DNA of 64,000 nt, from NCBI GenBank assembly GCA_016931175.1, contig JAFGFH010000014.1:4553-68552 (forward strand), given 5' to 3'. Below are positions 2,736-28,761 of this stretch, in pieces. A program made the position numbers and the translations under genes. The stretch is from Nanobdellota archaeon (GTDB taxonomy: Archaea; Nanobdellota; Nanobdellia; Tiddalikarchaeales; Tiddalikarchaeaceae). The notes beneath the pieces are model-generated. The model worked only from the letters and a program-made list of their open reading frames with translations. It was not told the origin of the DNA and made no database searches. Every line of letters starts with the position of its first letter. The first letter of the stretch is position 1.

Positions 2736-5312
2736 TTAAGTAATTAAAACAATTATTTGGTTTATAAAATTAACTAATAATTCAAAGAGGGAGACTTCGT
2801 CAAAGTAGTAAATTCCTTTACTATCCTCTTCTGTTGGCACAACTACCACACTGAATTGTTCAACAAGGTAATCCTCTGGGTTGTTAACATTATTCATTGT
2901 CAAAGTGAAGCTTATCTCTCCGCTTATAACGGGGTAAACGTCAATGTAAGTAACGAAGTCTGATAATGGAGGAACTGTTACAGTTAAAGTATTTGACTCT
3001 GACACTGTGAAGCGGGCGTAGCCGTTATCATAATTCAAAACCAGATTATAAGTTTGGAACTCGTTCAAAGGATTATTTATTGTGAAATTTATGGTTCCAG
3101 AATAAGTGTTGCCTGAAACTAAGAGTCCTGGAGGCAGTTCAACACTAACCTCGCTCGGCGTGTAATAACTCCTTGCCCAAGTATTATTAGATAAACAGTA
3201 ATAAGCGCCTTTAACAATTCCTGTAGCAACGTTGGTATCAACTCCTCCAGCATCACTAACCTGGTCGTTGCAGTCAAATAATTGCCCGCTTGAACAGTAC
3301 AAACTATTACTAATGTTCCCGCTGCTCATTGCAAAACCATTATAACAGCAGCTGCTTTGCCCGAGCCAGTCATCACTAGTCCCGTTGTTCCCGCAGCAAT
3401 AAGGACTCTCACCTGTGTTGTAATTTGGAATCCAAGACCAAGTCGTTGACGCGTTCACGCATAAACTGTAAGTATTCTCAGGATAAGAAGAGCAGTCAAT
3501 ATCAGGGGTTTCACAATACATGCCATAATCCTCCAAGCAGACTCCATCTATTAAACCGCAGTAAATTATTGAACCATTAAAGCAGGCGCCTGAACTATTA
3601 AAGAAAGTATCAAAGGCACCGTCATCACCGCAGCACGCAGCTATCAAATCACCGCTCCTGCCGCTGTTCCATGAAAAATCTAGTGCATCAAGATAAAAAT
3701 CACTATCCTGGTAGTATGATATGAAGTTCCAATTATCCAAATCAGTGCATGTGCCGTAAAAGCCCAGGTTGCTTCCAATTAATACATTATCTTTGTAAAC
3801 ACTCCATGACGAAGCACAGTCATAAATTACTTTATAATAATGCCATAATCCGTCTTTCTGATTCTTTGATTCCAATGTCTTAACCACACCATCATAGTAA
3901 AAGAGTTGGGAACTGCTCCAGTATAATCTAAGATTTCCTCCTCCTGAACCAGAAACCCATAGCCTGTTTTCACCAGAACCTCCTGGCATATTCTTCATCC
4001 AGAAATCAAACGTTCCAGACGCCTGGTTCTGGGTAGTAACACTGACTCCGAAATCACCATTTGTTGCACTCGTATGAAGCATGTGATAAACCTTTTCATG
4101 ACCATCCATTTGTTCAACAACTTCATTAGTTCCGTAATCAGTTCCATAAAGAACCCATCCTGAAGCTATACCTTCACCATTATTATCATAAGTGAATGAA
4201 TAAGTTGCAGGATAATTTGAGTTGTTAAACCAAGTATAGGAATAATCCTCACATAGTGTTTGATTAAAATCTAAAGGATGGAATGTTGCATATCCCTGAT
4301 AGCAGAAACTATTAGTTGTGCTTATACTATTATTATAAAAATTATCATACGCACCGTCATCACCGCAGCAGGATGCATTCGTTCCCGTTGTTGTTCCATA
4401 AAACCAGTCATAACCGTAAATAGTGCAAAGATTTTCACTGTCATCTAATCCATTAATGTAATACTCTGCGTTGTAGCAGAAACTTCCAGTATTCAAAGTT
4501 CCGTTGTAGAAAGTGTCATAAACGCTGTCATCACCGCAGCAAGAAGGAACAGTGTTGTTCGCGTTCAAAGTATTCCAGTCTTTATTCACTGCATCAATCC
4601 ATAAGTAATGGTTGGATGACGCGGAGGATATGACTGCTCCAGTTCCAAATAATTGATTCGTGGCTCCCAGAGTGCCCCAGTCACCGTACAAATTGCACGT
4701 TACTGGACTATTATCATCAAAGGTTACTTCAAAGGTTGAACTCGTGTTGTCAAATTCTACATTAATGTAGTGCCACTGGTTTGCGATTACTGTTCCTACT
4801 AGGGTCATGCCTGCGCCTGCGCCCTCAGCGCACGCAATATCTGACGTGATTATTATTGCTCCCAGGCTCGCAGTCCCGAATGCTAGAACAGGGCTCGCAC
4901 CTGCTGCTCCATTAGATAATAATTCTGCAATTCCGAAGGCGTTGCCAGGGTCTGCCATCCTAAACCAGAAACTCCAATTGCCTTTGGCCTGATTAAAATT
5001 AGCCGTTGCGGACAAGTATTTCTCATTATCAGGGTCAGCATCATTATCCCAGAACTCGTAAACCTTAGCGTGCCCGTCAACTTCATCAACTACGTAACCG
5101 TAACCAGGGTCCGCGCTGCCCCATAGCATGAAACCAGTCGGATTAATCGTGCCATTAGGGTAATCAAAGGATTCAGTAGCATTATAGTGAGAGTTGTTAA
5201 TCCAGTCAAAACCGCTGGACGTGCAAGCAGAAGCAGAAGTATCTTCAGCGAATGTTGCAAAACAAGGGCTAATAAGGATTATAAATATAAAGAAATACTT
5301 CAACCTCCCCAT
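2736..5312 (-). CDS. Secreted cysteine-rich surface protein with two ConA/LamG-like lectin-like domains and four CCGDDGAYD-type repeats
   Basis: ORF track gives 2736..5372. Start chosen at the internal Met (MGRLKYFFIFIILISPCFATFA signal peptide), which also avoids overlap with the structured RNA at 5346-5620. Repeats SCCGDDSVYDTFYN, SCCGDDGAYDNFYN, ACCGDDGAFDTFFN, YCCGNNGTSDDW. Two similar roughly 200 aa domains each containing DGH(A/E)KVY. Confidence 0.65.
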   Translation of the reverse strand: MGRLKYFFIFIILISPCFATFAEDTSASACTSSGFDWINNSHYNATESFDYPNGTINPTGFMLWGSADPGYGYVVDEVDGHAKVYEFWDNDADPDNEKYLSATANFNQAKGNWSFWFRMADPGNAFGIAELLSNGAAGASPVLAFGTASLGAIIITSDIACAEGAGAGMTLVGTVIANQWHYINVEFDNTSSTFEVTFDDNSPVTCNLYGDWGTLGATNQLFGTGAVISSASSNHYLWIDAVNKDWNTLNANNTVPSCCGDDSVYDTFYNGTLNTGSFCYNAEYYINGLDDSENLCTIYGYDWFYGTTTGTNASCCGDDGAYDNFYNNSISTTNSFCYQGYATFHPLDFNQTLCEDYSYTWFNNSNYPATYSFTYDNNGEGIASGWVLYGTDYGTNEVVEQMDGHEKVYHMLHTSATNGDFGVSVTTQNQASGTFDFWMKNMPGGSGENRLWVSGSGGGNLRLYWSSSQLFYYDGVVKTLESKNQKDGLWHYYKVIYDCASSWSVYKDNVLIGSNLGFYGTCTDLDNWNFISYYQDSDFYLDALDFSWNSGRSGDLIAACCGDDGAFDTFFNSSGACFNGSIIYCGLIDGVCLEDYGMYCETPDIDCSSYPENTYSLCVNASTTWSWIPNYNTGESPYCCGNNGTSDDWLGQSSCCYNGFAMSSGNISNSLYCSSGQLFDCNDQVSDAGGVDTNVATGIVKGAYYCLSNNTWARSYYTPSEVSVELPPGLLVSGNTYSGTINFTINNPLNEFQTYNLVLNYDNGYARFTVSESNTLTVTVPPLSDFVTYIDVYPVISGEISFTLTMNNVNNPEDYLVEQFSVVVVPTEEDSKGIYYFDEVSLFELLVNFINQIIVLIT

Positions 5313-5345
5313 ATTATTAATAAGAAGTGTAGCGGTTTTAAAAAA

Positions 5346-5620
5346 TGTAGTGGAGGGAGCTCCTAAGCACAACCATGCATCCCAGTGAACTTAACCAAAC
5401 ACTTTGCTCCACCCTGCTACCTCACGAACACCGAAGAGGATAACTTATAGCTGCTCCCGTCAAGGCCTGACTCTTTCATTAACATCAAGGTCCCGTGAGA
5501 CAAGGCTTCGACGCGCGGTGTAAGGGGTTCTCTAAGGTGCGAAGCCACACTCAGGTATTCAGCTCTGCCAGCAACTTGCAGCGAGGGGTTTCGTTAAAAC
5601 CCAGCCTATCCCTCCAAAAA
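5346..5620 (-). ncRNA. Candidate signal recognition particle RNA (7S/SRP RNA)
   Basis: Non-coding island of about 270 nt, visibly GC-richer than its surroundings. Terminal helix GGAGGGA (5352-5358) pairs with TCCCTCC (5609-5615), as in archaeal SRP RNA helix 1. The minus strand carries GUCAGGCC-UUGAC-GGGAGCAGC, resembling the helix 8 apex CAGGCCC-GGAA-GGGAGCAA. Several internal hairpins, e.g. GGGUUU-CGUUA-AAACCC. Strand and exact ends uncertain. Confidence 0.45.
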
Positions 5621-7602: not shown

Positions 7603-8751
7603 TTAAAGCTCTATTAAATTAACCTGTTTGCTTTTGGCTTTGATATTGTTAGATACTATGTTTGAAACTCCTTTCTCTTCTGCAATAGAAACTAATTCCT
7701 TGTCAACAACGCCGTCCACAACTATTGAAACTATGTTATCTGAGCTGTCTGTTAATGTGTTAACTATTTCTGAAGCTGGAAGTTTTCCCTTAATGTTCAT
7801 GTTTTCATCCAACAAGTAAGCTCCTCTTGTTCCGAACAAGTCATTAAGAAGCTCTTTGAACTTATTAGCCTCTCCTTTAACCTCTTTATGAACTTTTTTG
7901 GAGGATGACATCATCTTGCCTCTTGTCTTCTTTCCAAAAAACTCGCTTGCTTTCATCCTTGAACGAAGACATTTGTGAATCTCTTTGCTGGTTAATTCTT
8001 CAACCTCTTTGCCGTCAGGCGCAACTGCTATGTATTCCAAGTTGCCTAGGTTCATCACTTTCTGGGCAATTAATTTCCCTCCCCTGTCGCCGTCAACAAA
8101 CAAGGTACAAACCTTAGTGTCAAGAATTTTTTTAACAGATTTCGGAACGTTTACTCCGTTAACGGATAATAAACCGCCGAAGCGGTTCTTCAGCATGTTA
8201 ACTACATCAGCTCTTCCTTCAACAAGGATTACCTCCTCTGCTGATTCAATATCGTTTGAAGCAGCTAATTTGTCAGGCCCGTACTCTATCAAGTTTGCAG
8301 CCCTCACGCTTTTCTTAACAGTGCTCATTATTTCTTGTGAATCTGTTGATTCCAAATTTAGTTTTTTAAGAAGATTCTTTGCCCTGTCCATTATCATCTC
8401 TCTTTTGTTAAAGCGAACGTCTTCAATCTCTTTCACATTAACCTCTGCTACGCAGGGTCCGATTCTTTCAATAGTTTCAAGGCTTGCAGCTATTATTGCC
8501 GTTTCAGCCTTTGCTAAACTGCTTGGAACTGTTATTGTTCCAGTAGTTTTATCATTCTTTGTTTCAACTTTAACATCTATTCTTCCTATCCTTCCGCTTT
8601 TCTGAAGCTCGCGAAGCTCTAACTCATCACCAAGCAAACCCTCTGTCTGCCCGAAGATGGCGCCTACGATATCATTCTTGTCTATACTTCCTTCAGCTTC
8701 AATCGCTGCGGTTATGATATACTTGGTTGAAACAGGATATATCTTACCCAT
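7603..8751 (-). CDS. dnaG: DNA primase DnaG (archaeal Toprim primase)
   Basis: N-terminus ...IITAAIEAEGSIDKNDIVGAIFGQTEGLLG is characteristic of archaeal DnaG. Toprim region VEGRADVVNM...DGDRGG. Confidence 0.85.
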   Translation of the reverse strand: MGKIYPVSTKYIITAAIEAEGSIDKNDIVGAIFGQTEGLLGDELELRELQKSGRIGRIDVKVETKNDKTTGTITVPSSLAKAETAIIAASLETIERIGPCVAEVNVKEIEDVRFNKREMIMDRAKNLLKKLNLESTDSQEIMSTVKKSVRAANLIEYGPDKLAASNDIESAEEVILVEGRADVVNMLKNRFGGLLSVNGVNVPKSVKKILDTKVCTLFVDGDRGGKLIAQKVMNLGNLEYIAVAPDGKEVEELTSKEIHKCLRSRMKASEFFGKKTRGKMMSSSKKVHKEVKGEANKFKELLNDLFGTRGAYLLDENMNIKGKLPASEIVNTLTDSSDNIVSIVVDGVVDKELVSIAEEKGVSNIVSNNIKAKSKQVNLIEL

Positions 8752-8782: not shown

Positions 8783-9127
8783 TCATAAACCTTCAACGTG
8801 GCTTATTTTCAACTCAGCAAGGTTTTTTTGAAAGGTTTCATCAACCTTCACACCTAACCTGCCAAACTCAGCTTTTAACTTAGAAAACAATTTTCGTCCT
8901 TCAGTGTCATTGTCCATTAATAGTATGACTCTATTATGCAAACTCCCTATCTGCTCAGCAAATGAATATAAAGGCTTGCGTGATAATTGAGTTACTTTTG
9001 TGATTCTAAGCTGTTTGAGCCTGGCAACGTCCTTTGCTCCTTCAACAATAACTAAAGTATCAGCGCGTATAATTTTTTCAATAAACTCTTCCTTTGTTAA
9101 AGGATTTTTGTTGCCCTTTACTAACAC
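8783..9127 (-). CDS. Small Toprim-domain protein (COG1658-like)
   Basis: VIVEGAKD...LLMDNDTEG Toprim acidic motifs in a 114 aa protein immediately upstream of dnaG. Confidence 0.65.
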   Translation of the reverse strand: MLVKGNKNPLTKEEFIEKIIRADTLVIVEGAKDVARLKQLRITKVTQLSRKPLYSFAEQIGSLHNRVILLMDNDTEGRKLFSKLKAEFGRLGVKVDETFQKNLAELKISHVEGL

Positions 9128-9246
9128 AACTCCTCACCGCTTTTGATGAACATCATCTTTGCTCTGATATTGTAACCTTGTAAAGGGCTTACCTTGCCAA
9201 TATGAATATAGCAAGGTTGATATTTAAAAAACTTACCCAAACATTT

Positions 9247-9264
9247 ATTTACCATATGGTAAAT
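9247..9264. promoter_or_regulatory. Perfect 18-bp palindrome ATTTACCATATGGTAAAT in a 305-bp divergent intergenic region
   Basis: Self-complementary by inspection. A 17/18 match (ATTTACCATATAGTAAAT) occurs at 26929-26946 inside the putative origin. Confidence 0.35.
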
Positions 9265-9432
9265 AATTAAGATTATTTACAGTTTGAAAAACCTTGTTTT
9301 TCAATATAGTAAATAAATAAGTGGTTGTTGAACTGCTAGAAGTATAATATAAGGAATTGATATTCTTTAAGTGTTTTTATCATATAGTATCAATATTCAT
9401 ATATTAAATCAATAGATTGTTTAATTTTTAGA

Positions 9433-10035
9433 ATGACGATTATTCGTGAGTCTAATTTTTCAGATTCTTTGAACAATTTTAATGTTCTAGAAGCATTAGA
9501 CGAATTTGTTTACCAAGTGGCTGCAAAACCGGTTGAGTATCACAGAGAGTACTGCCTGGAGTCCTTTGTTGAGAGGGAATTGTTTGATTTAAACCTGCAG
9601 GAAATGTACAGAGATATTAAGATTCATTACATGATTAAAGAATACTTGTATTACAAAAAACTGTTAACAGAAGAAGTTAAGAACAATAAAAAGGGTTATC
9701 TTGATTTCATCTTAAGAATTGATGTTGAAAGTTACGAATCTGTTAAGGATTCGCTTGTTGGAGACTTCCTTGAGGTGAATCTTTTTGAACTTGAGGAGGT
9801 TATGAGCAAAGATTTCGAACCGGGTGATTTAATCAAGCAGGGATGGAAGTGCTTCATCTTTGACAAGGTTTTGTCAATTCTTGAGAAGCAGACTAAGAAT
9901 TCTATCTTAGAGGATGAGGTAGTTAAGTTCGTAGAGGATAATGGTTTGAAGAATGCTGAACCTCAGTCTATAGCTTGGACTTACGCGATTGAATCTTACA
10001 AGATTGAAGAGAAGAGGTGGAAGGTTTCAGGTTAA
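9433..10035 (+). CDS. Hypothetical protein (200 aa)
   Basis: ORF with acidic, protein-like composition. Confidence 0.45.
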   Translation: MTIIRESNFSDSLNNFNVLEALDEFVYQVAAKPVEYHREYCLESFVERELFDLNLQEMYRDIKIHYMIKEYLYYKKLLTEEVKNNKKGYLDFILRIDVESYESVKDSLVGDFLEVNLFELEEVMSKDFEPGDLIKQGWKCFIFDKVLSILEKQTKNSILEDEVVKFVEDNGLKNAEPQSIAWTYAIESYKIEEKRWKVSG

Positions 10036-26112: not shown

Positions 26113-26225
26113 TATTTTTATTGATTTGTAGATTATTTAAAAAGGTTTTAAATAATAGAAGAAACCAGACAATTATTTACAATATTGTAAAAAAATATAA
26201 AAATGTAAGGTGATTAATCCATCCT

Positions 26226-26774
26226 ATGAAAGGCAGACCAGAAGGCAGCATTATTAGAAACAGATTAATAGCTATACTTCAAAGAGTGAGAACTAGTTAC
26301 GGGTATGAACTTTACAAATTATATAAGGAAATCTTTGGGAACGTTCATATAAGAACCATATATTATAATCTAAAAAAAGGCATTGAAAAAGAGGAAATAA
26401 TAGTTGTTAATGTTGCAAGAGAGTTGGGAGATTATTCATGGGGTGATGAGGTTGAAAAAGTGTATTATAGTGTTGGCCCTTACGCAAACCAAACCCTTTC
26501 CAAAAAAGACGTTGAAAAAATAAATGAAATAAAAAATAAAGAGAATAATATTAAGATAGATTGGAAGAAAGAGGTAACAAATATTGTTAACCAGTACAGG
26601 AAAGAGTTCAATGATTATAAGGAAAGGTATGAAAAATTGTCCAATCAAGGAAAGAAATTATTGAAACAGAGGCTTGAAGAAAAATATAAGAAAATAAAAA
26701 AGTACAGTTCTGACAAGATAAGTGAAAACGATTTGAATACTTTAATAAAAGATTCTAACCCCCAGACCCTTTGA
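26226..26774 (+). CDS. PadR-like winged-helix protein with C-terminal coiled coil
   Basis: N-terminus IRNRLIAILQRVRTSYGYELYKLYKEIFG...IYYNLKKGIEKEEI fits the PadR wHTH pattern. The 3' end overlaps the left ORB-like repeat of the putative origin. Confidence 0.45.
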   Translation: MKGRPEGSIIRNRLIAILQRVRTSYGYELYKLYKEIFGNVHIRTIYYNLKKGIEKEEIIVVNVARELGDYSWGDEVEKVYYSVGPYANQTLSKKDVEKINEIKNKENNIKIDWKKEVTNIVNQYRKEFNDYKERYEKLSNQGKKLLKQRLEEKYKKIKKYSSDKISENDLNTLIKDSNPQTL

Positions 26775-26985
26775 TTTCTTGTGGAACTTATGGAGAACGC
26801 GTTTTAAGTGAAAATGTTTCAACTCCTTTATTTCCTCTGGAAATAAGTTATAAAAAGGTTTAAAGCTGTTGTTCCTTTAGAAAAATAAAAGTTTTTATAA
26901 AATCTTCTTGTTTTATATTATATATATTATTTACCATATAGTAAATATATATTATATATGAAGAACTTCCACAAGAACGAAACCC
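26758..26985. other. Putative replication origin (oriC): inverted ORB-like repeats flanking an AT-rich DUE, immediately upstream of orc1/cdc6
   Basis: TTCTTGTGGAA (26776-26786) and TTCCACAAGAA (26967-26977) are an exact inverted 11-mer. The left copy, read on the minus strand, is TTCCACAAGAAatcAAAGGGTCTGGGGG, i.e. an ORB-like core plus G-string. About 160 bp of nearly pure AT lies between them, including the palindrome-like ATTTACCATATAGTAAAT. Confidence 0.55.
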
Positions 26986-27062
26986 TCTAAACCAACAACT
27001 CCATATGAAACAAAGGTGTATCTGTGGTTTTATTACAGAAATATTTATAAGCTCTCTTTCCT

Positions 27063-28286
27063 TTGGAACTGGATATAATGGTGCAAATGTCTGCTTTTGA
27101 TTTCTTTGAGGAATACTTGGACAAACCTTCATTGTTTAAGAACCCTGACGCGTTAACTCTAAAATTTAATCCTGATAATATACCTCACCGTGATAAAGAG
27201 ATTAATCTGATAGCTCAAATACTCGCCCCTGCTTTGAAACAGGTCAAACCATCTAATATATTCATTTACGGCAAACCAGGAACAGGCAAGACATTGGTTG
27301 TTAAGAATGTTTTAAAGAATATGGAGAAAATATCTGGTTCAAAAAATATTCCTCTTAAGCTTATTTACTTGAACTGCAAGATGCAGAACGTTGCTGATAC
27401 TGAGTATCGGGTTGTGGCCCAGATTTCAAGAGAGTTTGGCAAGGACGTTCCTATCACTGGGCTTCCAACCAATGAAGTATATAATGAGTTCTTTAGTGTG
27501 GTTGACGATACTAAACAAGTTGTGATTCTTGTTCTGGATGAGATAGATGTTTTGATTAATAAATGCGGGGATAACATACTTTACAATCTTACCAGGATTA
27601 ATGAGAACTTGAATAATGCTGTTCTTTCAATAATAGGAATCAGCAATGATGTTAATTTCAAGAATAATCTTGAACCAAGAGTTAAGAGCAGTCTTGGTGA
27701 GGAGGAAATAATCTTTAACCCTTATGATGCTTTGCAGCTTAAAGAGATACTTCATCAGAGGGCGGAGCTGGCATTTAATGAGTCTTCTTTTGATCCTCTT
27801 GTTATTGCCAAATGCGCGGCTTATGCAGCCCAGCAGCACGGTGATGCTAGGAGGGCAATTGCTCTTTTCAGGGTTGCAGGCGAATTGGCAGAGAGGGCTA
27901 ATAAAATATTATCTGAAGAGTTTGTTGACATGGCAGAGAAGCAGCTGGAGAAAGACACAGTTATGGAGCTTGTGAAGAATTTAACATTACAGTCAAAGCT
28001 TGTTTTTTACTCTATCATATCTTCTTTGAAGAACAGGGTTACTCCTGCCTTCACTGGTGAGATATTCGAGTTTTATAATCATATTTGCAACAGGAATGGT
28101 TTGGACGTTCTTACTCAGAGAAGGCTGAGCGATTTGATAGGAGAGTTGGACATGCTGGGATTGATTAATGCCAAGGTTATAAGCAAAGGAAGGTATGGCA
28201 GAACAAGAGAGATAAGCTTGGCTGTTGATGCGGATTATGTTAATAAGATAAGCATATGGTTAGAGGATGATTTAGAGCTTAAATAA
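27063..28286 (+). CDS. cdc6: Orc1/Cdc6 origin-binding AAA+ initiator
   Basis: Walker A GKPGTGKT, Walker B VLDEID, C-terminal winged helix. A TATA-like ATTTATAA at 27043-27050 suggests a leaderless start at the Met at 27078. Confidence 0.9.
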   Translation: MELDIMVQMSAFDFFEEYLDKPSLFKNPDALTLKFNPDNIPHRDKEINLIAQILAPALKQVKPSNIFIYGKPGTGKTLVVKNVLKNMEKISGSKNIPLKLIYLNCKMQNVADTEYRVVAQISREFGKDVPITGLPTNEVYNEFFSVVDDTKQVVILVLDEIDVLINKCGDNILYNLTRINENLNNAVLSIIGISNDVNFKNNLEPRVKSSLGEEEIIFNPYDALQLKEILHQRAELAFNESSFDPLVIAKCAAYAAQQHGDARRAIALFRVAGELAERANKILSEEFVDMAEKQLEKDTVMELVKNLTLQSKLVFYSIISSLKNRVTPAFTGEIFEFYNHICNRNGLDVLTQRRLSDLIGELDMLGLINAKVISKGRYGRTREISLAVDADYVNKISIWLEDDLELK

Positions 28287-28761
28287 TTCTTTTCTTTTTT
28301 CTAATAAACCACATTATTAATAATAAAGGTATTAACAACAGTATTATTTTGACTATATTGTTTGTTTCAGCTGCCAAGTTAGTGATTGAAACCTCACTGG
28401 TTTCTATTAAGCTTGAAGCAAGCAAACCTTCTTGTTTAGGCCGAAGGTATGATATTATGAAGTAGCCGTACATTATTGTTATTGCTGCTTTTACTTCCAA
28501 ATCTTTTGTAACTGATTTTAATAATTTTTTTAAATTCATAATCCAATTATTCTTGTAATCATCACTTAATTCGCACAAGGTTATTGTCTTCTTGTCTTTC
28601 TTTGTTTTTTTCACAATTATTAAATTGTCTTTTTTCATATCATTTATTATCTTATGAGTGTAAGAGTAATAATTCCCTGTCCTCTTAGCCAGTTCGCTTA
28701 TACTAACACCAGGAGTTTCTATTAATATTTTAGTGATTTCATCTTTTAATTTTAAATCCAT
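28279..28761 (-). CDS. Membrane-anchored winged-helix (HTH) protein
   Basis: N-terminus ILIETPGVSISELAKRTGNYYSYTHKIINDMKKDNLI is wHTH-like. Two C-terminal transmembrane helices. Confidence 0.45.
   Translation of the reverse strand: MDLKLKDEITKILIETPGVSISELAKRTGNYYSYTHKIINDMKKDNLIIVKKTKKDKKTITLCELSDDYKNNWIMNLKKLLKSVTKDLEVKAAITIMYGYFIISYLRPKQEGLLASSLIETSEVSITNLAAETNNIVKIILLLIPLLLIMWFIRKKKRII

What the first reader, a model, noticed from the sequence alone, without database searches (positions are those of the whole stretch)
9247..9264. 18-bp perfect palindrome shared between the dnaG/Toprim upstream region and the origin DUE
ATTTACCATATGGTAAAT (9247-9264) is perfectly self-complementary. It lies in a 305-bp divergent intergenic region between the small Toprim gene (upstream of dnaG) and a hypothetical gene. 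A 17/18 copy (ATTTACCATATAGTAAAT, 26929-26946) sits in the middle of the AT-rich unwinding element of the putative origin 17.7 kb away. A dyad-symmetric 18-mer recurring at a replication origin and at the primase operon promoter suggests a dimeric DNA-binding factor linking the two. Candidates are a cell-cycle or replication regulator, or an accessory Orc/WhiP-like protein. The same 9.1-9.4 kb region also contains a stem ACCTTGC-N13-GCAAGGT (9194-9220).
Basis: seen in the sequence. Interest (0 to 1): 0.55.

Follow-up and report, generated by a model that had tools for sequence, protein, structure and literature searches.

The report
Conserved operator inside an archaeal origin
A conserved 16-22 bp palindrome lies inside the replication origin of a group of tiny DPANN archaea and again at the promoter of an uncharacterised DNA-binding protein gene next to that origin, so this protein probably binds the origin as a second factor besides the initiator Orc1.

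Summary
The motif is TTA-TTTAC-N-ATAT-N-GTAAA-TAA.

- **Copies in the window:** four, at 9248, 9298, 26176 and 26930. About 0.01 would be expected in the window's intergenic DNA. Nothing else in 64 kb comes close.
the perfect palindrome at 26176-26191. It abuts the TATA box of a 182-aa gene (26226-26774) between a P-type ATPase gene and the origin.
- **The protein:** it models confidently as a PadR-like winged-helix protein with a helical C-terminal domain. It matches no Pfam or NCBIfam family.
- **Conservation:** the origin copy occurs in all 12 related origins examined. In most it lies 21-23 bp from the first orc1-proximal Orc1 box. The promoter copy recurs in recognisable form upstream of the protein's gene in all 12.

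Best reading: this is the operator of the origin-adjacent winged-helix dimer, which regulates its own gene and binds the origin's unwinding element. No binding has been shown. The closest precedent is the Sulfolobus ucm/UBP pair, which is structurally unrelated.

The parts
9247..9264 (.). Palindrome copy T1 (ATTTACCATATGGTAAAT). Its centre lies about 55 bp upstream of the inferred transcription start of the Toprim-dnaG operon.
   Evidence: 37.9 bits. An orthologous copy is present in L036-L041 and L042 and absent in L043, L049, L050 and L051.
9298..9313 (.). Weaker copy T2 (TTTTCAATATAGTAAA, 1 mismatch), 50 bp centre to centre from T1.
   Evidence: 22.1 bits. No counterpart was seen in relatives.
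9222..9232 (-). TATA box of the Toprim-dnaG operon (TTTTTTAAATA on the minus strand).
   Evidence: Conserved in 7 of 7 lineages in alignment A4.
9113..9202 (-). Conserved structured 5' leader of the Toprim gene. It encloses the Shine-Dalgarno sequence GGUGAGGAG and the GUG start (9127).
   Evidence: Alignment A4 and RNAalifold with compensatory changes. No Rfam match. It is a neighbour of the palindrome, not part of the operator system.
8783..9127 (-). 114-aa Toprim-domain gene (RNase M5-like), first gene of the operon with dnaG (7603-8751).
   Evidence: Pfam Toprim, NCBIfam PRK04017 and RNase M5, synteny.
26176..26191 (.). Own-promoter operator: TTTACAATATTGTAAA, a perfect palindrome abutting the BRE/TATA of the winged-helix gene.
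   Evidence: 34.2 bits. Conserved in all 8 main-clade relatives (degenerate in L003). A variant is present in L046, L052 and L053.
26195..26202 (+). TATA box (ATATAAAA) of the winged-helix gene. The ATG follows about 27 nt later, so the mRNA is leaderless or nearly so.
   Evidence: Invariant block in alignment A3; sequence.
26226..26774 (+). 182-aa PadR-like winged-helix protein with a helical C-terminal domain; the candidate binder.
26759..26789 (+). Outer left Orc1 box (ORB): C-rich string plus TTTCTTGTGGAAC. It overlaps the last codons of the winged-helix gene.
   Evidence: (D3, I14).
26818..26844 (+). Inner left ORB (ACTCCTTTATTTCCTCTGGAAAT).
   Evidence: (D3).
26845..26963 (.). AT-rich duplex unwinding element between the inverted ORBs.
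   Evidence: (GC 0.289 for 26-27 kb).
26929..26946 (.). Origin copy of the palindrome (ATTTACCATATAGTAAAT), 21 bp from the first right-hand ORB.
   Evidence: 31.0 bits. The core TAC.ATATAGTAAAT is invariant in 6 of 6 relatives found through Orc1. Present in L045, L048, L046, L052 and L053. Spacing.
26964..26977 (-). First right-hand (orc1-proximal) inverted ORB core (AACTTCCACAAGAA).
   Evidence: (I14: 93% complementary to 26776-26789).
26999..27027 (-). Second right-hand ORB (CTCCATATGAAAC plus AAAGGTGTATCTGTGG).
   Evidence: Alignment A1.
27044..27069 (+). orc1 promoter: TATA TTTATAAG plus a mini-ORB TTTCCTTTGGAAC between the TATA box and the ATG.
   Evidence: Nearly invariant in alignment A1.
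27078..28286 (+). orc1/cdc6 initiator gene.
   Evidence: Pfam Cdc6_C, Cdc6_lid and AAA; 70-79% identical relatives.

Best explanation
The 18-mer is one copy of a conserved operator, TTA-TTTAC-N-ATAT-N-GTAAA-TAA: two 5-6 bp half-sites separated by 6 bp.

**Proposed binder.** I propose that a homodimer of the 182-aa PadR-like winged-helix protein encoded at 26226-26774 binds it. That gene lies directly beside the replication origin. Each subunit's recognition helix would read one half-site in successive major grooves.

**Proposed system, in three layers.**
1. An operator abuts the BRE/TATA of the protein's own leaderless gene. This gives autoregulation, most likely autorepression by competing with TFB/TBP.
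2. An operator lies inside the origin's AT-rich unwinding element, held two helical turns (21-23 bp) from the first orc1-proximal Orc1 box. There the dimer would sit where the MCM helicase is loaded and DNA is first opened. I favour a gating role: the origin fires only when the protein leaves or is remodelled, possibly on ligand binding as in PadR subfamily-1. A helper role like that of Sulfolobus UBP is equally compatible with the data.
3. A few lineage-specific extra operators exist. In this genome two lie about 55 and 105 bp upstream of the Toprim-dnaG transcription start.

**Shown here:** the sequences, their statistical excess, their conservation and fixed spacing, the protein's predicted fold and the gene order.

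**Inferred:** that this protein is the binder, that binding affects origin firing, and the sign of the effect.
For: **The motif is real and rare.**
- There are 4 copies against about 0.01 expected in intergenic DNA, and a gap of more than 11 bits to the next best site.
- All 23 matches with up to 1 mismatch in 255 kb of related DNA lie between genes. One exception overlaps the last codons of GlyRS in L042; the other two ORF overlaps listed there are spurious calls of the crude ORF finder.

**The origin copy is conserved.**
- It is present in all 12 related origins examined.
- It is an invariant block within a region of only 60% column identity.
- It lies 21-23 bp from the first right-hand ORB in 8 of 9 main-clade genomes.

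**The own-promoter copy is conserved.**
- The operator plus TATA box form an invariant block upstream of the winged-helix gene (A3).
- Conservation extends about 10 bp beyond what a BRE/TATA needs.

**The gene stays near the origin.**
- It lies between the P-type ATPase gene and the origin in 10 of 12 lineages.
- In the other two it is inside the same replication-gene cluster.

**The protein looks like an operator-binding dimer.**
- The model has pLDDT 84.9. It shows a winged helix followed by a short helix and two long helices.
- That is the PadR subfamily-1 architecture as described in PMC5728393.
- The top Foldseek hits are B. subtilis PadR bound to its operator.
- PadR reads 18 bp as 6 + 6-bp spacer + 6. 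ATTTAC-CATATG-GTAAAT has the same geometry.

**Sites and protein change together.** In the divergent clade (L046, L052, L053), motif position 13 becomes A at both the own-promoter and the origin copies. Their proteins carry K/S..N instead of H..T at the start of the recognition helix.

**Conservation is of base identity, not of pairing.** Positions 5/12 are C/G in 29 of 29 sites. The variable positions 6/11 are complementary in only 18 of 29.

**There is a precedent.** In Sulfolobus, a non-ORB motif in the unwinding element is bound by a lineage-specific protein and is required for origin firing (PMC12141716).
Against: - No binding data of any kind exist. The link between protein and site rests on adjacency, an autoregulation-like placement and one clade-level co-change, which is a single evolutionary event.
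- The protein has no sequence-level match to PadR or any other family.
- The origin copy is asymmetrically conserved. Its right half ATATAGTAAA is frozen while the left half varies. A simple symmetric dimer does not predict this.
- L003's own-promoter copy is degenerate.
- The Toprim copy is present in only 3 of 7 lineages.
- The origin itself is inferred from ORB-like repeats and orc1 adjacency. GC skew in the window is uninformative.
- Genome-wide site counts are unknown, so an abundant nucleoid-protein-type factor cannot be excluded.
Confidence: 0.5

Rival explanations
1. The palindrome is a protein-binding site, but the binder is some other factor. This could be an abundant sequence-specific nucleoid-associated protein of the UBP/IHF/Fis type, encoded elsewhere. 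The adjacent winged-helix gene would then be just one of its targets.
For: - UBP in Sulfolobus binds its origin motif plus more than 300 other sites, mostly upstream of genes, and its gene was identified biochemically rather than from genome context.
- L005 has four copies in 12 kb, two of them in front of unrelated genes.
- The Toprim copy comes and goes between lineages.
Against: - In most 20-kb relatives only two copies exist: the own-promoter copy and the origin copy.
- 37 kb of the window downstream of orc1 has no copy.
- The operator abuts the TATA box of the winged-helix gene in every main-clade lineage.
- It co-changes with that protein's recognition helix.
Confidence: 0.2
2. The winged-helix protein binds the motif but acts purely as a transcription factor. 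On this reading the origin copy is an upstream control element of orc1, whose ATG lies about 130 bp downstream. It would have no direct effect on unwinding or helicase loading.
For: - The distance from the palindrome to the orc1 ATG is as constant (127-131 bp in 7 of 9) as its distance to the ORB.
- All other copies are in promoter regions.
- PadR-type proteins are classical transcription factors.
Against: - orc1 has its own conserved TATA box and mini-ORB 30 nt from the ATG. Two ORBs lie between that promoter and the palindrome.
- The site lies inside the AT-rich element flanked by inverted ORBs, so any protein bound there necessarily occupies the unwinding/loading zone.
- In L046 and L052 the distance to orc1 grows to about 215-225 bp, yet the copy stays in the unwinding element.
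Confidence: 0.17
3. The palindrome works as a DNA structure, not as a protein site. It would be a hairpin or cruciform that nucleates unwinding, or marks a start site once the origin is opened.
For: - It is a perfect or near-perfect inverted repeat in AT-rich, easily melted DNA.
- Some substitutions are symmetric, for example TTTGCAATATTGCAAA in L007 and the C/G versus A/T pairs at positions 6/11 in own-promoter copies.
Against: - The predicted hairpins are weak (-1.6 to -5.3 kcal/mol) and mostly no better than shuffles.
- Complementarity is not maintained at the positions that vary: 6/11 in 18 of 29 sites and 4/13 in 21 of 29.
- Specific bases are invariant instead.
- A structural role at an origin does not explain the copy abutting a TATA box.
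Confidence: 0.06
4. The element is a back-to-back pair of BRE/TATA promoter elements (GTAAA plus an A/T-rich box on each strand). It would be read only by the general factors TFB and TBP, making it a bidirectional promoter core and not an operator.
For: - The right half GTAAA followed by A/T-rich sequence resembles a BRE plus TATA box.
- At the winged-helix gene it does lie exactly where a BRE should be.
- Both flanks are A/T-rich in all copies.
Against: - At the origin and Toprim copies no gene or conserved transcript starts at the right distance.
- The Toprim operon has its own separate conserved TATA box 16-32 nt away.
- The central ATAT and the far half-site are conserved although a BRE/TATA does not need them.
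- Other promoters in the window (orc1, Toprim) do not contain the motif.
Confidence: 0.05
5. Chance recurrence of an AT-rich low-complexity word.
For: - The regions are 28-33% GC.
- Loose versions of the pattern are not enriched.
Against: - Expected 0.0085, observed 4, in intergenic DNA of matched composition.
- Conserved at orthologous positions in up to 12 lineages.
Confidence: 0.01

Closest known systems
ucm motif and UBP (ucm-binding protein) at Sulfolobus oriC1 (Dhanaraju et al. 2025, PMC12141716)
   Same: - A short conserved non-ORB motif lies inside the AT-rich unwinding element between inverted Orc1 boxes.
- It is proposed (here) or shown (there) to be bound by a lineage-restricted, sequence-specific protein other than Orc1.
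- The motif also occurs upstream of genes elsewhere.
   Different: - UBP is a 111-aa beta-hairpin 'saddle' protein that binds DNA as a monomer. The candidate here is a predicted 182-aa winged-helix dimer of PadR type.
- The ucm is an 11-bp sequence, not described there as a palindrome, lying midway between the ORBs. This is an 18-22 bp palindrome offset to one ORB.
- UBP has more than 300 sites. Here sites appear few.
- Unlike the candidate gene here, UBP's gene was found by biochemical purification rather than from its genomic position.
- UBP is reported only from Sulfolobales and Desulfurococcales.
- Function here is untested.
CtrA binding sites in the Caulobacter origin (Cori); comparison from general knowledge
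   Same: A dimeric transcription factor has dyad-type sites in the origin, in its own promoter and in other promoters. This couples origin firing to gene regulation.
   Different: - CtrA is a bacterial response regulator with a phosphorylation-controlled receiver domain and a TTAA-N7-TTAA site.
- It has five sites in the origin and an established repressive role.
- There is no homology with the protein here.
PadR family, subfamily-1 (B. subtilis PadR, V. cholerae AphA; PMC5728393)
   Same: - Same predicted architecture: an N-terminal winged helix, then one short and two long C-terminal helices, in a protein of about 20 kDa.
- Same operator geometry: 18 bp as 6 + 6-bp spacer + 6.
- These are the best Foldseek hits (5x11).
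   Different: - No detectable sequence similarity (no PF03551 hit in 30 of 30 members).
- PadR proteins control detoxification genes in bacteria and are not known at replication origins.
- The effector, if any, is unknown.
Replication terminator protein RTP bound to Ter sites (B. subtilis, PDB 1f4k)
   Same: A winged-helix dimer bound to a specific chromosomal site, where it acts on the replicative helicase and not on RNA polymerase. It appears among the Foldseek hits (rank 13, TM-score 0.50 on the target).
   Different: RTP acts at termini as a polar fork barrier against a bacterial DnaB-type helicase. The similarity is limited to the generic winged-helix fold.
Haloarchaeal oapABC (origin-associated protein) cluster (PMC7002104)
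   Same: Conserved non-Orc genes lie on the side of the canonical origin opposite the orc1 gene.
   Different: oapABC is a divergently transcribed three-gene cluster in a different phylum. No shared operator in origin and promoter has been described for it. Homology was not tested here.

Membership tests
PadR family (subfamily-1) transcription factors | [quoted passage not shown] | tested here: met
   The AlphaFold model (pLDDT 84.9) has H9-21, H26-37, H42-54, a four-strand wing, H93-100, H113-137 and H140-161. Foldseek ranks 1-8 are PadR-DNA complex 5x11. Architecture as described in PMC5728393.
PadR family (subfamily-1) transcription factors | Sequence match to the family model (Pfam PF03551) or to solved PadR proteins | tested here: not met
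   No PadR hit for the window protein or any of 30 members at E<=1. No PDB sequence hit to the winged-helix domain.
PadR family (subfamily-1) transcription factors | Conserved Tyr, Tyr and Lys DNA-contact residues | tested here: inconclusive
   The family has invariant Y25/Y27 (YGYE) and Y46/Y47 (IYYNLKKG), and nearly invariant K78 in the wing. No residue-level structural alignment to PadR was available to confirm equivalence.
PadR family (subfamily-1) transcription factors | Homodimer recognising an 18-bp palindromic operator (6 bp + 6-bp spacer + 6 bp) | tested here: inconclusive
   The motif geometry ATTTAC-N6-GTAAAT matches. Dimerisation and binding cannot be tested with these tools.
ucm/UBP-type accessory origin element | Conserved non-ORB motif inside the unwinding element between inverted ORBs of an orc1-adjacent origin | tested here: met
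ucm/UBP-type accessory origin element | Motif required for origin firing; binder interacts with MCM | not testable with these tools
   Needs genetics or biochemistry. The organism is uncultivated.
ucm/UBP-type accessory origin element | Binder is a UBP homologue (beta-hairpin saddle fold) | tested here: not met
   The candidate binder is a winged-helix protein. The paper restricts UBP to Sulfolobales and Desulfurococcales. The window was not searched with a UBP sequence.
ucm/UBP-type accessory origin element | Hundreds of sites genome-wide (nucleoid-associated behaviour) | tested here: inconclusive
   Only 4 sites in 64 kb, and typically 2 per 20 kb around relatives' origins. Whole genomes were not available.
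Origin recognition box (ORB, Orc1/Cdc6 site) | TTCCA-N3-GAA(A/C)-type core with a flanking G/C-string, in inverted copies around the unwinding element | tested here: not met
   The palindrome shares no sequence with the ORB-like repeats, which are separately present and conserved.
WhiP/Cdt1-like initiator | Cdt1 homology or tandem winged-helix domains | tested here: not met
   The model has a single winged helix plus a helical hairpin. Pfam CDT1 appears in only 1 of 30 members, at E=0.046. No Cdt1 among the top fold hits.
Archaeal oriC1-type replication origin (the setting of the 26.9-kb copy) | orc1/cdc6 adjacent; inverted ORBs flanking an AT-rich element; experimental initiation or a skew switch | tested here: inconclusive
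   Adjacency and inverted conserved ORBs are met. GC skew over 64 kb is uninformative. There are no replication-profile data.

The most novel reading that the evidence does not exclude
A clade of DPANN archaea (Woesearchaeales-like Nanoarchaeota, including Ca. Tiddalikarchaeum) has evolved its own second origin factor. It would be a ligand-responsive PadR-like dimer encoded as a compact cassette (operator-gene-oriC-orc1). The dimer would sit in the unwinding element two helical turns from Orc1 and license or block MCM loading. That would tie chromosome replication of an obligate symbiont to a small-molecule or host-derived signal. It would be an independent, structurally unrelated analogue of Sulfolobus UBP. 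It would also answer the question raised in PMC12141716: whether other archaeal lineages have such factors.
Probability: 0.3. Interest if true: 0.75.

Novelty: new variant of a known kind. Interest (0 to 1): 0.58.

Why it matters
Archaeal origins were long thought to need only Orc1/Cdc6 boxes and an AT-rich element. Only in 2025 was a second, essential sequence element with its own binding protein demonstrated, and only for Sulfolobales. Those authors asked explicitly whether other lineages have analogues.

This finding supplies a concrete, testable candidate in a very distant and uncultivated lineage:
- a defined 18-22 bp DNA element;
- a defined 182-aa protein that could be expressed recombinantly;
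- a fixed geometry relative to the Orc1 box.

If confirmed, accessory origin factors would appear to have arisen repeatedly from different folds. It would also give the first handle on replication control in DPANN archaea, and add an unannotated winged-helix family with a known operator. If the protein turns out to be only an autoregulated transcription factor of orc1, the result is still a defined regulator-operator pair for organisms in which almost no regulation is known.

Tried and rejected
- **Loose half-site patterns.** TTACCATATGGTAA with 3 mismatches and TTTAC-N6-GTAAA with 1 mismatch are barely or not enriched. Only the full motif is informative.
- **More distant relatives.** The metagenome scan with DnaG returned 27 loci at 36-54% identity. 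None has the palindrome near dnaG. They showed only that the Toprim copy is confined to the close clade.
- **The 200-aa gene downstream of the palindrome (9433-10035).** It has no homologue in 5.8 billion proteins. It is therefore unlikely to be the conserved target, and it occupies a variable slot between GlyRS and Toprim.
- **A non-coding RNA in the 305-bp spacer.** Rfam found nothing at gathering score or at E<=1.
Its partner arm is not conserved.
- **Sequence-family assignment of the winged-helix protein.** Pfam, NCBIfam, PDB sequence search and hhalign against LmrR were all negative.
- **Hairpin or cruciform.** Weak energies and no maintenance of pairing at variable positions.
- **A replication regulon.** No copy lies at the promoters of RPA, the PolD small and large subunits, NrdD or thymidylate synthase in the window.
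- **The second HTH gene downstream of orc1 (28279-28761).** It is not syntenic in relatives, so it was not pursued as the binder.
- **Literature.** A full-text search for the motif strings found only unrelated primers. A 2026 preprint with 208 complete Nanobdellota genomes does not mention ORBs, palindromes or PadR.
- **AFDB fold search.** The library was unavailable.
Full report
**Observation**

The 18-mer ATTTACCATATGGTAAAT is at 9247-9264 and is perfectly self-complementary. The 17/18 copy ATTTACCATATAGTAAAT is at 26929-26946.

- With up to three mismatches the 18-mer has three matches in the window, against 0.08 expected from dinucleotide-preserving shuffles.
- A fourth, weaker copy (TTTTCAATATAGTAAA) lies at 9298-9313, 50 bp from the first.
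- The window is 29-44% GC and its intergenic DNA only 28.5% GC, so I tested AT-richness directly. Two thousand first-order Markov simulations of the 4.8 kb of intergenic sequence gave a mean of 0.0 exact and 0.0085 one-mismatch matches to TTTACNATATNGTAAA. The observed counts are 3 and 4.
- A symmetrised weight matrix built from all sites found later scores the four window copies at 38, 34, 31 and 22 bits. The next best position in 64 kb scores 10.9 bits.
- Loose half-site patterns are not enriched. The signal is the whole motif, TTA-TTTAC-N-ATAT-N-GTAAA-TAA.

**Setting**

The window comes from a DPANN archaeon.
- Its Orc1/Cdc6 is 70-79% identical to proteins of MAGs labelled Nanoarchaeia or Woesearchaeota.
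- The source contig is annotated 'Nanoarchaeota archaeon'.

The 26.9-kb copy lies directly upstream of orc1/cdc6 (27078-28286; Pfam Cdc6_C, Cdc6_lid, AAA).
- It sits in an AT-rich stretch bounded by inverted repeats of an Orc1-box-like sequence. On the left are TTTCTTGTGGAAC and TTTCCTCTGGAAA. On the right are TTCCACAAGAA and CTCCATATGAAAC (I14 and D3).
- These boxes, and a separate orc1 promoter (TTTATAAG plus a mini-box TTTCCTTTGGAAC about 30 nt before the ATG), are conserved in six relatives (alignment A1).
- This is the canonical anatomy of an archaeal oriC1-type origin. That it is an active origin remains an inference, because GC skew over 64 kb is uninformative.

**Conservation of the origin copy**

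- In alignment A1, mean column identity is 60%. Within it, the block TAC-N-ATATAGTAAAT is invariant in all six Orc1-selected relatives.
- The copy is also present in Ca. Tiddalikarchaeum (L045) and in L048. It is present with one to three changes in the more distant L046, L052 and L053. That makes 12 of 12 origins.
- In 8 of 9 main-clade genomes the palindrome ends 21-23 bp before the first orc1-proximal box, while the left boxes are 78-91 bp away. It is therefore held in register with one Orc1 site, not simply embedded in AT-rich filler.
- The right half (ATATAGTAAA) is frozen while the left half varies (TTTAC or TATAC). I cannot explain this asymmetry.

The copy at 26176-26191 directly abuts ATATAAAA (26195-26202). 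That TATA box lies 27 nt before the ATG of a 182-aa gene (26226-26774), which sits between a P-type ATPase gene and the origin.
- In the eight main-clade relatives the block ATTTATTT(A/G)C(A/C)ATAT(T/G)G(T/C)AAAAATATAAAAA is essentially invariant, and the ATG follows at a constant distance (alignment A3). L003 has a degenerate right half.
- Conservation extends about 10 bp beyond what a BRE/TATA needs. That points to an operator.

The protein family:
- It has only 33 members in 5.8 billion proteins. All are about 180 aa and all are from DPANN MAGs.
- An exhaustive profile search finds 166 representative clusters among 1.84 billion. Only 15 have E<=1e-30, the level of the full-length matches.
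- It matches no Pfam, NCBIfam or PDB sequence.

Its AlphaFold model is confident (pLDDT 84.9).
- It shows a winged helix-turn-helix followed by one short and two long helices.
- This is the PadR subfamily-1 architecture. PadR dimers read 18 bp as two 6-bp repeats separated by 6 bp (PMC5728393).
- ATTTAC-CATATG-GTAAAT has exactly that geometry.

Gene order supports the link. The gene lies next to the origin in 10 of 12 lineages. In the other two (L046, L052) it lies 3 kb away in the same cluster with PolD, Orc1 and RPA.

**Evidence that the two copies share one binder**

- In the divergent clade (L046, L052, L053) the own-promoter copies read TTTTC...GAAAA and not TTTAC...GTAAA.
- In the same clade the right half of the origin copy also carries A at position 13 (GAAAA, GAAAA, GATAA).
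- These proteins differ from the main clade at the start of the recognition helix: K or S for H41, and N for T44.
- Two independent sites therefore change together with the protein. This is a single phylogenetic split, so the support is modest.

**Protein site or DNA structure?**

- Across 29 sites, positions 5/12 (C/G), 3/14, 7/10 and 8/9 are essentially invariant.
- The positions that do vary are not kept complementary: 6/11 in 18 of 29 sites and 4/13 in 21 of 29.
- Predicted DNA hairpins are weak (-1.6 to -5.3 kcal/mol) and mostly within the range of shuffles.
- What is conserved is base identity in two half-sites plus a central ATAT. That is what a dimeric protein reads. It is not pairing as such.

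**The Toprim/dnaG copy**

Gene order GlyRS - [variable small gene] - Toprim - DnaG is conserved.
- The palindrome upstream of Toprim is present in the window, in the L036-L041 group and in L042, where it overlaps the last codons of GlyRS.
- It is absent in L043, L049, L050 and L051. Two of those have Toprim proteins closer to the window's (76-80%) than the carriers do.
- Where present, its distance to the operon's own conserved TATA box (TTTTTAAGTA) is 16, 32 or 27 nt.
- It is therefore a lineage-variable, peripheral site. In this genome its centre is about 55 bp upstream of the inferred transcription start, with the second copy at about 105 bp.

Other points bear on the 'primase operon' reading:
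- The 200-aa gene on the other side has no homologue at all.
- From general knowledge, archaeal DnaG is chiefly an exosome component and not the replicative primase.
- The 114-aa Toprim protein resembles RNase M5.
- The promoters of RPA, both PolD subunits, NrdD and thymidylate synthase in the window carry no copy.
- In L005, extra copies sit 40-47 nt upstream of an HD-domain gene and a 206-aa gene.
- The regulon thus has a constant core (own gene and origin) and a changeable fringe.

**Mechanism**

- My best explanation (confidence about 0.5) is that the palindrome is the operator of the origin-adjacent PadR-like dimer.
- At its own promoter the operator overlaps the BRE position, so I infer autorepression.
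- In the origin the dimer would occupy the unwinding element two helical turns from an Orc1-bound box, which is the zone where MCM is loaded and DNA first opens.
- I favour a gate that must be released for firing. Release might follow ligand binding, as in PadR subfamily-1. A facilitating role like that proposed for UBP is equally compatible with the data.
- Rivals are:
  - another, perhaps abundant, factor binds (0.2);
  - the same protein acts only on orc1 transcription (0.17);
  - a DNA-structural role (0.06);
  - a back-to-back BRE/TATA (0.05);
  - chance (0.01).

**Comparison with what is known**

- **ucm/UBP in Sulfolobus (closest precedent).**
  - The ucm is an 11-bp motif in the unwinding element between ORB2 and ORB3.
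  - It is required for oriC1 firing.
  - It is bound by a lineage-restricted 111-aa protein that also binds more than 300 other sites and contacts MCM (PMC12141716).
  - Those authors close by asking whether other archaeal lineages have analogous proteins.
  - The present case has the same logic, but differs in motif (palindromic, offset to one ORB) and in predicted fold (winged helix against beta-hairpin saddle).
  - It also differs in apparent site density, and its gene is physically linked to the origin.
- **CtrA at the Caulobacter origin.** It resembles this in function: sites in the origin, in the factor's own promoter and in other promoters (general knowledge).
- **RTP.** It shares the idea of a winged-helix dimer acting on a helicase, and appears as a weak fold hit.
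- **Haloarchaeal oapABC.** It shows that conserved non-Orc genes can flank origins (PMC7002104).
- **Membership in PadR.** This is supported only at the level of fold and operator geometry. The sequence test failed, so I do not file the protein as a PadR-family member.
- **Literature.** Full-text searches found no description of the motif or of such a protein in Nanoarchaeota or Woesearchaeota.

**Verdict**

A dimeric-factor site shared with the origin is supported. A primase-operon link and an Orc/WhiP-like binder are not.
- The finding is a new variant of a recently recognised kind: an accessory sequence-specific element inside an archaeal origin.
- It remains a computational prediction in uncultivated organisms, without any binding or functional data.
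- I score interest at 0.58.

Noticed in passing
window 9113-9202 (minus strand), with L036, L042, L043, L049, L050, L051: The Toprim-dnaG operon has a strongly conserved 5' leader of about 75-90 nt: AUUGGCAAGGUA..GCCCUUUAC..AGGUUACAAUAUCAGAGC-[variable hairpin]-GCGGUGAGGAGUUGUG. GCCCUUUAC pairs with GUAAAGGGC in codons 3-5 of the ORF. UUACAA pairs across the GUG start, so the Shine-Dalgarno sequence is enclosed. Compensatory changes are present (UUUGC/GCAAA, UUUAU/AUGAA; inner hairpin UGAUG/CAUCA versus GAACA/UGUUC). There is no Rfam match. It looks like an undescribed translational control element, possibly autoregulated by the RNase M5-like Toprim protein.
   Followed up: partly
window 26759-26789: The C-rich string of the outermost left Orc1 box overlaps the last codons of the winged-helix gene. 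It appears to impose the conserved C-terminal NPxTx of the protein. That tail is absent in L046 and L052, where the gene is not next to the origin. Transcription of the gene therefore runs straight into the origin.
   Followed up: partly
window 9433-10035: The 200-aa ORF divergent from Toprim has no homologue in 5.8 billion proteins. The slot between GlyRS and Toprim holds a different small ORF in each lineage: 102 aa in L036, 97 aa in L043, 171 aa in L051 and none in L042 or L050. It may be a hotspot for gene gain or simply a spurious ORF.
   Followed up: partly
window 27044-27080: The orc1 promoter has a nearly invariant TATA box (TTTATAAG) followed by a mini Orc1 box (TTTCCTTTGGAAC) between the TATA box and the ATG at 27078. 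This suggests Orc1 autorepression and a leaderless mRNA. The mechanical ORF start (TTG at 27063) is probably not the real start.
   Followed up: partly
L042 9856-9874: In this relative the palindrome upstream of Toprim overlaps the final five codons and abuts the stop codon of the glycyl-tRNA synthetase gene. The operator is kept even where it must also encode protein.
   Followed up: no
window 5355-5614 (minus strand): The signal recognition particle RNA of this archaeon is reported under the bacterial large SRP model (RF01854, 66.9 bits, just above the gathering score of 60) and not under an archaeal SRP model. It overlaps by 18 nt the start of an 878-aa ORF (2736-5372) that has no Pfam match.
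   Followed up: no
L005 6103-6118 and 6933-6948: This relative has two extra perfect copies of the palindrome. They lie 46 and 39 nt upstream of an HD-domain gene and a 206-aa gene, each followed by an A/T-rich TATA-like box. So the set of peripheral targets differs between lineages.
   Followed up: partly
window 26226-26250 (protein residues 2-8): The winged-helix family begins with a nearly invariant KGRPxGS, which resembles the GRP core of an AT-hook. It could place an N-terminal arm in the AT-rich minor groove at the centre or flanks of the operator. The model is disordered here (pLDDT below 50).
   Followed up: no
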